Virus record (IMG/VR): IMGVR_UViG_3300042904_000308
Span: 32,001 to 96,000 of that record
Reading direction: 5' to 3' (one strand)
Source of the DNA: a virus
Length of the DNA stretch: 64,000 bases
Position 1 is the stretch's first letter. Each line of letters begins with the position of its first letter. Under the pieces are notes generated by a model that worked only from the letters and a program-made list of their open reading frames with translations, did no database searches and was not told the origin of the DNA. Position numbers and translations under genes: made by a program. Shown here piece after piece: positions 55,451 through 56,134 of this stretch.

Positions 55451-55681
55451 TGACTATCTCCCATTCATTGCCTAGTGTCGCCAGCCGCGAAACACTGCCA
55501 AACATCCCGTAGGATGCTAGGCAGTGCATAGGCTAGTAGAGTGATTCACTACGTACTAGCCTCACACTGTATCCAACCTGCTATTACTAGCAGTCCCTTA
55601 CCCTAGTAGGTGCTACGCCACTAGGGTAACTTGCGGTTAGCTATTCGCCATCGTGCCTACCGCGATTCACGAAACTATGGA

Positions 55682-55841
55682 ATATCGCCCCGACTGTTAC
55701 CAGTGATGTATTGCCGTTTGCCGCTAACCCGCTCGCCTCATTAGGGTAGTGAGTGACTCACTAGGCGAAACCTACTACCGTGAGGGATAGAGCCAAACTA
55801 GCGATACTCGCAGTACCAGTGCTGGTAACGTCTGGCGATAT
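55682..55841 (-). ncRNA. Candidate structured RNA domain 2 of the early leader
   Basis: ATATCGCC..GAC.GTTACCAG pairs with CTGGTAAC GTC.GGCGATAT; boxA-like GCACCTTGACAA at 55846-55857 just upstream. Confidence 0.55.
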
Positions 55842-55864
55842 GAACTTGTCAAGGTGCTAAGAGA

Positions 55865-56044
55865 ATCTAACCGAAACCCGAAGGGTCTACGTTCGTACGG
55901 AACCGTTCCACGGTAAGCAATGTTTGGACGTTCGCTAGGTTCCTCGCATCGGTTTCGAGCCTAGGCTAGAAACCTGACGGGTTAGCGTCCCGAGCGTCAA
56001 GGCTTACCCTACTGTGTGAGTGCTGCCGTACGACCGCGTTAGAT
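55865..56044 (-). ncRNA. Candidate rod-like structured RNA domain 1 of the early leader
   Basis: Nested pairs ATCTAAC/GTTAGAT, TCGTACGG/CCGTACGA, GGTAAGC/GCTTACC, GGACG/CGTCC, AGGTT/AACCT; boxA-like GCACTTTACAAA at 56049-56060. Confidence 0.55.
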
Positions 56045-56105
56045 GCAATTTGTAAAGTGCGCGCCCCCTCGTTGCCGAGTGGCGTTTGTCATTGCTGACA
56101 CTGGT

Positions 56106-56134
56106 AATCTAGCAAACGCTGATCAGGATGTCAA
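56106..56134 (-). promoter_or_regulatory. Major early sigma70 promoter
   Basis: TTGACA-N17-TAGATT at the head of the leftward arm. Confidence 0.75.

What the first reader, a model, noticed from the sequence alone, without database searches (positions are those of the whole stretch)
55451..56134. 650-nt early leader with two boxA-headed structured RNA domains and a hairpin train
Seen, in transcript order: promoter (56106-56134), GCACTTTACAAA, a 180-nt rod of nested helices and bubbles (55865-56044), GCACCTTGACAA, a 160-nt domain closed by ~19 bp (55682-55841), then hairpins (TTACCCTAGT/ACTAGGGTAA, AGGCTAGTA/TACTAGCCT, ACTGCC/GGCAGT). This repeats the layout at 37872-38168. Inference: rrn-style Nus antitermination plus processed ncRNAs; the size and shape of the rod are reminiscent of 6S RNA, an RNAP decoy.
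Basis: partly seen in the sequence, partly recalled or inferred. Interest (0 to 1): 0.72.

Follow-up and report, generated by a model that had tools for sequence, protein, structure and literature searches.

The report
Structured early leader RNA, soil phage
The 650 untranslated bases behind the main early promoter of an uncultured, probably temperate soil phage fold into two rod-shaped RNA domains, each headed by a motif resembling the ribosomal-RNA antitermination signal boxA, and the first rod turns up alone as RNA in a soil metatranscriptome, so it is probably a stable RNA and not just a spacer.

Summary
A strong sigma70-type promoter (56134-56106, minus strand) is followed by two GNRA-capped hairpins. 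Then come two independently folding rods (56044-55865 and 55841-55682). Each is preceded, four bases upstream of its closing arm, by a single-stranded boxA-like motif. Four very stable hairpins and the first gene follow.

The fold beats shuffles (z -4.8 for the whole leader). The special tetraloops exist only in the minus sense. The same promoter-then-closed-domain layout recurs at 38168-37872 and, as I found, at 32217-32029.

New here:
- One soil metatranscriptome holds a single 213-nt contig that equals 56065-55853, that is motif 1, rod 1 and the start of motif 2. It holds nothing else of the 1.9 kb laid.
- The closest relative, a complete 128-kb phage, has no such leader and about 50 promoters on its early strand. 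This phage has three.

The boxA reading is plausible but not shown. The motif matches natural rrn boxA forms of some Pseudomonadota over 11 bases, yet all four copies carry A where every rrn boxA I read has U. It also overlaps the -35 consensus, and the host is unknown.

6S membership is not supported: no Rfam match and no robust central bubble. No homologues were found, so there is no covariation evidence.

The scan has noted promoter-boxA-structured-RNA leaders before, in phiEco32-like coliphages.

The parts
56106..56134 (-). Early leftward sigma70-type promoter (-35, 17-nt spacer with TGn, -10). The start site is inferred near 56100.
   Evidence: 10 of 12 matches, TG present; sequence. It is one of only three such promoters on the early strand of this phage.
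56062..56100 (-). Two 5'-terminal hairpins, both capped by GCAA (GNRA) tetraloops. The second ends 2 nt before motif 1, which is the boxB-then-boxA order of rrn leaders.
   Evidence: pair probability 0.56 for the first, 0.95-0.99 for the second.
56049..56060 (-). boxA-like motif 1. It is predicted single-stranded and lies 4 nt upstream of the closing arm of rod 1.
   Evidence: core unpaired.
55865..56044 (-). Domain 1: a 180-nt rod with a side hairpin near its 3' end (UUCG-type loop) and a palindromic apical loop.
   Evidence: The core helices have pair probability 0.85-1.0.
55853..56065 (.). The stretch present as a single 213-nt contig in a soil metatranscriptome: motif 1, domain 1 and the first bases of motif 2.
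   Evidence: run X7, record 7, 1 mismatch, word depth 3.8, and no other part of 54600-56500 covered. A contig does not give the strand.
55846..55857 (-). boxA-like motif 2. It is single-stranded and lies 4 nt upstream of the closing arm of rod 2.
55682..55841 (-). Domain 2: a 160-nt unbranched rod closed by 19 pairs (8+3+8).
   Evidence: z -4.2; pair probability 0.96-1.0.
55492..55629 (-). Train of four stable hairpins: a 12-bp stem; a 6-bp stem with a GUAA loop; 9+4 bp; and 8+7 bp with a UACG loop.
   Evidence: pair probability 0.91-0.99. They are not members of the downstream intergenic hairpin family.
55448..55462 (-). Ribosome-binding site and ATG of the first early gene (54647-55450, 267 aa, weakly endonuclease III-like).
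37872..38168 (-). Second instance of the layout: promoter, boxA-like motif 3 (38115-38104), a hairpin, and a domain closed by a perfect 20-bp stem.
   Evidence: (z -6.0).
32029..32217 (-). Third instance: promoter, then a 125-nt domain closed by a 10-bp stem whose 3' arm holds the start codon. Only a degenerate copy of the motif is present, and it lies inside the domain.
   Evidence: z -4.05.

Best explanation
This is the untranslated 5' leader of the leftward early operon of an uncultured, probably temperate soil phage. The record is 115 kb and estimated 80% complete.

Shown:
- It is a real, minus-sense structured RNA built from modules: single-stranded motif, then a long closed domain.
- The same design follows the other two early promoters.
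- Domain 1 accumulates as RNA in a natural sample.
- This phage has three host-type promoters on its early strand, where its relative has about 50.

Inferred mechanism:
1. The motif works like rrn or T7 boxA. Host NusB/S10 bind it on the nascent RNA and load a Nus complex onto RNA polymerase.
2. That complex protects the 650-nt untranslated leader and the following ~18-kb multi-gene transcript from Rho.
3. By tethering the upstream arm of each closing stem to the polymerase, it also helps the stem form when the downstream arm emerges, as proposed for 16S rRNA.
4. The leader is then processed, and domain 1 survives as a stable RNA of roughly 210-250 nt. Its own function, if it has one, is unknown.
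For: - Structure: z -4.8, -4.2, -6.0 and -4.05 for the leader, rod 2 and the two other leaders.
- Strand: 4-5 of the 5-6 tetraloops are GNRA or UNCG in the minus sense and none in the plus sense.
- RNA: a single 213-nt metatranscriptome contig covers exactly 56065-55853 and nothing else of the 1.9 kb laid.
- Motif count: ACYTTRACAA occurs 3 times against 0.11 expected, with 0 of 100 shuffles reaching 3. All copies are on the minus strand and non-coding.
- Motif state and position: all copies are predicted unpaired. Motifs 1 and 2 both sit 4 nt before the upstream closing arm.
- Likeness to rrn boxA: rrn leaders of unnamed Pseudomonadota read here carry G-N-U-C/G-UUUGACAA-G/U-U. Motif 3 shares 11 contiguous bases with two of them.
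- Genome logic: the syntenic relative G001 has 47 regex-matched promoters on its early strand, while this phage has 3.
- Precedent in print: T7 has a boxA behind its early promoters (PMC3709561). [quoted passage not shown]
Against: - All four copies have A at position 3, where about 33 of the rrn leaders read here and the published consensuses (PMC5725501, PMC13753749) have U.
- A boxA-like element that differs at one critical position is not bound in Salmonella (PMC5725501).
- The motif contains or nearly contains the -35 hexamer. The relative's promoters have the extended -35 'aCTTGACAa', so it could be a promoter relic.
- The pattern was defined after seeing the sites.
- The host is unknown, so the host's own boxA could not be compared.
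- The third leader has only a degenerate copy, and a fourth copy (30613-30604) follows a terminator with no visible promoter.
- There are no homologues, so no covariation evidence.
- Rod 1 alone is only marginally better than shuffles (z -2.5).
- The RNA evidence is one low-depth contig (3.8) from one run, without strand or true ends.
- Terminator-like sites on the early strand are no more frequent than chance.
Confidence: 0.4

Rival explanations
1. A plain structured leader with no Nus involvement. The rods and hairpins protect the 5' end of the early mRNA and serve as nuclease (RNase III or E) processing sites, as in T7 and lambda early transcripts. The motif is a relic or by-product of -35-like promoter sequence. 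Domain 1 is seen as RNA only because a tight fold decays slowly.
For: - Long near-perfect closing duplexes of 19-20 bp.
- The motif overlaps TTGACA and resembles the relative's extended -35.
- All copies deviate from rrn boxA at position 3.
- The downstream operon is punctuated by ten other conserved hairpin elements that look like processing sites.
Against: - No -10 element follows any copy of the motif at a usable spacing (sequence).
- The motif is kept single-stranded, and in motifs 1 and 2 at a fixed 4-nt distance from the closing arm.
- Rod 2 is the more stable fold, yet it is absent from the RNA run while rod 1 is present.
Confidence: 0.27
2. Domain 1 is a trans-acting regulatory RNA cut from the leader. 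It would be either a decoy for RNA polymerase (6S-like) or an immunity-type RNA like P4 CI or P1 c4, which are processed from operon leaders and control the same operon.
For: - Only domain 1 is present in the RNA run.
- The phage carries a large serine integrase and so is probably temperate.
- No recognisable repressor family was found in the ORFs beside the promoter.
- E. coli 6S is likewise processed from the 5' part of an mRNA (own knowledge).
Against: - No Rfam hit to 6S families or the C4 antisense RNA.
- The central 'bubble' is not robust in the ensemble.
- No complementary target of 12 nt or more beyond chance in the phage record outside the leader itself.
- The support is a single contig.
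Confidence: 0.15
3. The rods are cis-acting RNA antiterminators that modify RNA polymerase directly, as HK022 put does, without boxA or Nus factors.
For: Each early promoter is followed at once by a large folded domain, and the phage has very few promoters.
Against: The three domains share no sequence or common shape. put elements are two small stem-loops (own knowledge). There is no comparative support.
Confidence: 0.08
4. A DNA-level element. The inverted repeats would belong to the adjacent replication and control region, or the leftward transcript would serve as an origin-activating or primer RNA.
For: - Iteron-like direct repeats and an AT-rich tract lie at 56400-57750.
- The cumulative GC skew turns here.
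- Rod 1 folds equally well in either sense.
Against: - Similar closed domains follow two other promoters far from this region.
- The GNRA and UNCG loops are sense-specific.
- There is an RNA contig.
Confidence: 0.06

Closest known systems
Phage T7 early control region (host promoters A1-A3, boxA, RNase III site R0.3)
   Same: Strong host-type early promoter(s), then a boxA-type element in a long untranslated leader, and then a multi-gene early transcript punctuated by conserved hairpins (PMC3709561 for the T7 boxA; the rest is own knowledge).
   Different: - T7's boxA is reported as a functional antitermination element; here nothing is tested and position 3 deviates.
- T7's leader has no 160-180-nt closed rods.
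- This phage is large and probably temperate.
Bacterial rrn operon leader (boxB-boxA-boxC, Nus/SuhB complex, leader-trailer helix cut by RNase III)
   Same: A hairpin, then boxA, then the upstream arm of a long closing stem that encloses a structured RNA. The core motif matches natural rrn boxA forms over up to 11 bases (PMC4807359, PMC10250234).
   Different: - The enclosed RNAs are 160-200 nt, not rRNA.
- There are two modules in tandem.
- Position 3 is A instead of the invariant U.
- A protein-coding operon follows.
phiEco32-like coliphage early leaders noted earlier in this scan (promoters, each with boxA, then a structured RNA of about 0.9 kb)
   Same: The same logic: host promoters, a boxA-type signal and a large folded non-coding RNA at the head of the early genes (earlier notes e1-221541, e1-156314; not re-tested here).
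   Different: - Those carry host-identical boxA copies and one conserved 0.8-0.9-kb RNA with many homologues.
- This one has deviant motifs, two short rods, no known homologues, and direct RNA evidence for one rod.
6S RNA
   Same: A rod of about 180 nt with interior loops, carried at the 5' end of an mRNA operon, and apparently stable.
   Different: No covariance-model match, no robust large central bubble, and no evidence of RNA polymerase binding.
P4 CI RNA and P1/P7 c4 RNA (leader-derived immunity RNAs)
   Same: A stable RNA derived from the leader of an early operon in a temperate element (own knowledge).
   Different: Those are about 70-80 nt and act by pairing with sites in the same transcript. 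No such complementary sites were found elsewhere in the record (which did not test sites inside the leader), and there is no Rfam C4 match.

Membership tests
BoxA (NusB/S10 binding site of rrn operons, lambda nut, T7) | Match to the published consensus (gamma-proteobacterial GYTCTTTAANA; Bacillus AUGAUCUUUGAAA). | tested here: not met
   All four copies have A at position 3, and copy 1 also lacks one base. Consensuses are from PMC5725501 and PMC13753749.
BoxA (NusB/S10 binding site of rrn operons, lambda nut, T7) | Likeness of the core to natural rrn boxA variants. | tested here: met
   The 35 rrn leaders read here yielded about 33 boxA-type sites. Several Pseudomonadota carry ...UUUGACAA-G/U-U, and motif 3 shares 11 contiguous bases with two of them.
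BoxA (NusB/S10 binding site of rrn operons, lambda nut, T7) | Position: in the nascent RNA shortly after the promoter, single-stranded, ahead of a long untranslated RNA. | tested here: met
   Motif 1 lies about 40 nt and motif 3 about 20 nt after the inferred start sites. All are unpaired in the folds.
BoxA (NusB/S10 binding site of rrn operons, lambda nut, T7) | Identity with the host's own rrn boxA. | not testable with these tools
   The host is unknown. The 3' end of the mini-tmRNA is shared by many phyla. The motif is not enriched over the control in 301 Actinomycetota genomes.
BoxA (NusB/S10 binding site of rrn operons, lambda nut, T7) | Binding of NusB/S10, and Nus-dependent resistance to Rho. 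| not testable with these tools
   This needs biochemistry or genetics.
6S RNA | Match to the Rfam 6S covariance models. | tested here: not met
   No hit at the gathering score on the window, nor at E<=10 on 1 kb or on 226 bases.
6S RNA | A large two-sided central bubble in a rod of about 180 nt. | tested here: inconclusive
   The MFE shows a loosely paired middle. In the ensemble only 5-nt stretches on each side are reliably open.
6S RNA | Binds RNA polymerase holoenzyme and templates pRNA. | not testable with these tools
   This needs co-purification or in vitro transcription.
RNase III-processed closing stems (pre-rRNA, T7 early sites) | About two helical turns of duplex at the base of the domain. 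| tested here: met
   Rod 2 has 19 pairs with two small interruptions. The 38-kb domain has 20 perfect pairs. Rod 1's base is weaker.
RNase III-processed closing stems (pre-rRNA, T7 early sites) | Cleavage inside the stem. | tested here: inconclusive
   The RNA contig runs through both arms of rod 1's closing stem, but contigs cannot show ends.
Intergenic hairpin element family of the same operon (10 copies, 46909-54647) | Match to a covariance model built from the ten copies. | tested here: not met
   Model R1 with filters off finds the ten copies at 58-81 bits and nothing in 55451-56134 at E<=10.

The most novel reading that the evidence does not exclude
Domain 1 is an abundant phage-encoded regulatory RNA in its own right, released from the early leader and expressed in natural soil populations, possibly in lysogens. 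It would act on RNA polymerase or on the phage's own early transcription, giving an RNA-based control element at the head of the early operon of a large temperate phage that shows no recognisable repressor next to its main promoter. The boxA-like motifs would serve to make and fold this RNA as they do rRNA.
Probability: 0.15. Interest if true: 0.8.

Novelty: new variant of a known kind. Interest (0 to 1): 0.55.

Why it matters
Phage early leaders with boxA-type signals are known from T7, and this scan has seen them in phiEco32-like coliphages. Those cases all come from E. coli phages. This one extends the design to an unrelated, uncultured soil phage.

It also offers three things the earlier cases lack:
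- A natural contrast with a sister genome that solves the same problem with one promoter per gene.
- Short, separable rod modules.
- Direct environmental RNA evidence that one module outlives the rest of the transcript.

If the motif really recruits Nus factors despite its deviant position 3, it would widen the known boxA sequence space. It would also support the idea that boxA serves to fold and excise structured RNAs in general. If rod 1 acts in trans, it would be a new phage regulatory RNA.

Tried and rejected
**Comparative analysis found nothing usable.**
- No DNA match in the phage collection.
- No close relative of the first gene in viral contigs.
- The profile search gave one syntenic phage, G001, and three metagenome loci. 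None has the leader.
- The DNA polymerase and ribonucleotide reductase searches gave no closer phage.
- Two exact-pattern scans of viral contigs were empty.

**DNA runs X3-X5** gave only scraps. Uncovered parts, including the 55574-56048 gap in X4, cannot be interpreted.

**Paralogy of the modules:** local alignment scores are not above shuffles, so I do not claim a duplication.

**Leader hairpins as members of the intergenic element family:** rejected.

**Antisense targets elsewhere in the phage record:** only chance-level 12-13-mers. Sites inside the leader were not tested.

**Strand from G-U pairs:** uninformative.

**Plus-strand promoter near 55450:** a weak 8/12 candidate that the scan did not list. 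It is not excluded.

**Host through the mini-tmRNA:** its 3' end is shared by Actinomycetota, Burkholderiales and others, and its 5' end is nearest to low-GC lineages.

**Motif as the Actinomycetota rrn boxA:** not enriched over the reversed control in 301 genomes. Five of these (G024, G088, G126, G180, G232) are unpublished.

**Motifs as promoters:** no -10 element at a usable spacing, by eye.

**Not run:** no protein complex or structure job, because none bears on the question.

Full report
**Setting.** The window is bases 32001-96000 of a 115,172-bp IMG/VR virus record, CheckV estimate 80% complete. It has no close cultured relative; the DNA polymerase is at most 33% identical to anything in the phage collection. 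It occurs in soil metagenomes. It carries a large serine recombinase and so is probably temperate.

Genes left of about 56.1 kb run on the minus strand and genes to the right on the plus strand. The cumulative GC skew turns there. The finding is therefore the head of the leftward early arm.

**Observation.** Reading the minus strand, the order is:
- A promoter with a perfect -35, a 17-nt spacer ending in TGn, and TAGATT (56134-56106; 10/12).
- Two small hairpins, both with GCAA loops (56100-56062).
- Motif 1 (56060-56049).
- A 180-nt rod (56044-55865).
- Motif 2 (55857-55846).
- A 160-nt rod closed by 19 pairs (55841-55682).
- A weakly folded junction.
- Four strong hairpins (55629-55492).
- A ribosome-binding site and the ATG at 55450.

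No ORF of any size lies in the rods. Against dinucleotide shuffles the whole leader has z -4.8, rod 2 has z -4.2 and rod 1 only z -2.5.

Pair probabilities are 0.85-1.0 for the core helices. In the full-length molecule, however, the 5' closing arm of rod 1 can also pair with 55577-55571.

Of the five or six four-base hairpin loops, four are GNRA or UNCG (GCAA twice, GUAA, UACG) and a fifth can form a UUCG loop. Their complements are not special loops. This is strand-specific evidence for selection on the minus-sense RNA, which G-U counts could not give.

**The layout recurs.** It comprises an 11/12 promoter, motif 3, a hairpin, and a domain closed by a perfect 20-bp inverted repeat. That repeat is the best in the window at that spacing. 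The fold has z -6.0.

I found a third case behind the only other promoter of this type on the early strand (32217). It is a 125-nt domain closed by a 10-bp stem whose 3' arm contains the start codon, z -4.05. That leader has only a degenerate copy of the motif, inside the domain.

A fourth good copy of the motif (30613-30604) lies in a 490-nt intergenic stretch after a strong terminator. No visible promoter precedes it, and the stretch has no significant fold.

**RNA evidence.** Of seven public runs holding parts of 54600-56500, one is a soil metatranscriptome. Laid on the stretch, it contributes exactly one contig. That contig is 213 nt long, has one mismatch and aligns over its whole length to 56065-55853. 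This span is motif 1, rod 1 and the first five bases of motif 2. Nothing covers the other 1.7 kb.

Even DNA carry-over would not give that picture. The simplest reading is that this piece is far more abundant or stable than the rest of the leader and the mRNA.

The limits are these: one run, word depth 3.8, no strand, and contig ends that are not RNA ends. The true molecule could start at the promoter's start site and run some tens of bases further.

The more stable rod 2 is absent, so stability of the fold alone does not explain the pattern.

**The relative.** The first gene (267 aa) has few homologues. A profile of them is weakly endonuclease III-like. It led to a complete 127,895-bp phage with terminal repeats, G001.

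G001 is syntenic with this phage over structural and replication genes at 30-71% protein identity. It has no match to the leader, no mini-tmRNA, and 36 tRNAs.

Its early strand carries 47 matches to TTGAC[AT]-N16-18-TAnnnT between 60 and 87 kb, roughly one per small gene. This phage has three on its whole early strand.

In place of promoters, this phage's intergenic spaces downstream of the leader hold ten copies of a conserved hairpin element. The inner stems of those copies covary. A covariance model of these copies finds no copy in the leader.

So this phage must transcribe about 18 kb (56.1 to 38.2 kb) from one promoter. That makes a processivity device at that promoter reasonable. This is an argument from design, not a test.

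**The motif.** ACYTTRACAA occurs three times in the window against 0.11 expected, always on the minus strand in non-coding leaders. Motif 1 is a one-base-shorter variant. With two mismatches allowed, motif 2 has 13 matches against 4.7 expected, so the longer form is not unique. The pattern was defined post hoc.

All copies are unpaired in the folds. Motifs 1 and 2 both sit four bases before the upstream closing arm.

To see what real boxA looks like beyond E. coli, I read 35 rrn leaders; about 33 yielded a boxA-type site:

| Group | rrn boxA form read |
|---|---|
| Acidimicrobiia and Microbacterium | ...UCCUUGA-A/G-AAC |
| Burkholderiales | GCUCUUUAAAAAC |
| Many other Pseudomonadota | G-N-U-C/G-UUUGACAA-G/U-U |

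Motif 3 shares 11 contiguous bases with two of the last group.

Two things count against membership. Position 3 is U in every natural case and in the published consensuses (PMC5725501, PMC13753749), but A in all four phage copies. One deviant critical position abolishes binding in a tested case (PMC5725501). The motif also overlaps TTGACA, and the relative's promoters have the extended -35 'aCTTGACAa'. No -10 element follows any copy, so they are not promoters now, but they could be relics.

The leader holds no intrinsic terminator-like site, and along the operon such sites are at chance level. Any antitermination would therefore be directed at Rho.

[quoted passage not shown] It proposes that Nus factors tether boxA to the polymerase so that the stem forms co-transcriptionally before RNase III cuts it (PMC4807359, PMC10250234). 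T7 has a boxA behind its early host promoters (PMC3709561). boxA also guards other untranslated RNAs (PMC13753749).

The phage modules copy this geometry in miniature. I therefore favour, at about 0.4, a Nus-type signal that protects the long untranslated leader and operon from Rho and helps the closed domains fold. Domain 1 would survive processing as a stable RNA.

What is shown is the structure, the recurrence, the RNA contig and the promoter contrast. Factor binding, processing sites and any function of the rod are inferred.

**6S and other families.** Rfam gives no match in the leader at the gathering score. There is also no 6S-type match at E<=10 on 1 kb or on 226 bases. The only hits were chance-level (ToxI, a microRNA).

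In the ensemble of the 213-nt RNA, the middle of rod 1 has only 5-nt open stretches on each side, not a 6S-type bubble. 6S membership is therefore not supported. A decoy function is not excluded but has nothing specific in its favour.

A leader-derived immunity RNA of the P4 or P1 kind is conceivable in a temperate phage whose control region shows no recognisable repressor. No complementary target was found elsewhere in the record, though.

**DNA-level reading.** The 1.6 kb to the right of the promoter is non-coding and carries iteron-like repeats and an AT-rich tract. An origin is therefore probably adjacent. The sense-specific loops, the RNA contig and the two distant parallels argue that the rods act as RNA.

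**Verdict.** The 6S idea is not supported.

It is a new variant of a known kind. This scan has already described promoter-boxA-structured-RNA leaders in phiEco32-like coliphages on other DNA. No homologue of this particular leader was found anywhere, so conservation remains untested.

Noticed in passing
window 46030-46150 (-): A 121-nt miniature tmRNA. Rfam tmRNA scores 72.5 bits with both acceptor halves and the T-arm, but about 40 nt stand in place of the 292-nt coding and pseudoknot core. ARAGORN does not call it. It lies inside the same early operon.
   Followed up: partly
window 46909-54647 (-): Ten copies of a conserved intergenic element. Each has an 11-nt 5' box, a variable stem-loop with compensatory changes, and a 10-nt 3' box that pairs with the 5' box (one copy shows a double change). 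The copies start at the stop codon of the first early gene. They occupy the positions where the relative G001 has promoters.
   Followed up: partly
window 55472-57632; whole record: CTAG is rare in the record (72 sites; 425 expected from composition) and elsewhere sits mostly at TAG stop codons. Yet 13 sites lie in the 684-nt leader and 22 in this 2.2-kb control region, mostly as GCTAG, CTAGC or CCTAGG. Unexplained.
   Followed up: partly
window 56390-57750 (+): Non-coding control region to the right of the promoter. It holds three GCCGCTAG-type repeats, four or more iteron-like GTGAACGA-type repeats (56570-56780), an AT-rich tract with repeated ATTTTCG (56940-57110), and a 21-nt direct repeat (57655-57700). 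It is probably the replication origin or immunity region.
   Followed up: no
G001 (L126-L132), 60-87 kb, minus strand: The sister phage has about 50 near-consensus extended -10 promoters, about one per early gene. It also has 36 tRNA genes on its rightward arm. This phage has 3 such promoters and no tRNA in the window.
   Followed up: partly
window 32029-32153 and 56038-56048 (-): The upstream closing arm of rod 1 and that of the third early leader share GCAUCUAA. One unnamed Pseudomonadota rrn leader (L173) has the same bases right after its boxA. In the third leader the downstream arm sequesters the start codon.
   Followed up: partly
window 54647-55450 (-): The first early gene (267 aa) has only four distant homologues among 5.8 billion proteins. 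A profile of them weakly matches endonuclease III structures (E 0.002), with a helix-hairpin-helix-like G-x-G-x-K-T motif.
   Followed up: partly
window 30604-30780 (-): A strong intrinsic terminator is followed 80 nt later by a fourth boxA-like motif. No recognisable promoter lies between them, and a 330-nt untranslated stretch runs to the next gene.
   Followed up: no
window 57753-58297: An HNH / endonuclease VII-like gene (140 aa) is followed by a 27-nt inverted repeat (58183-58297) at the start of the rightward arm.
   Followed up: no
L198 3427-6083 (record 24426-27082): A large serine recombinase (549 aa) lies next to a Thg1-like gene. RNA ligase, ThyX, class II ribonucleotide reductase and an AEP primase lie in the window.
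   Followed up: partly
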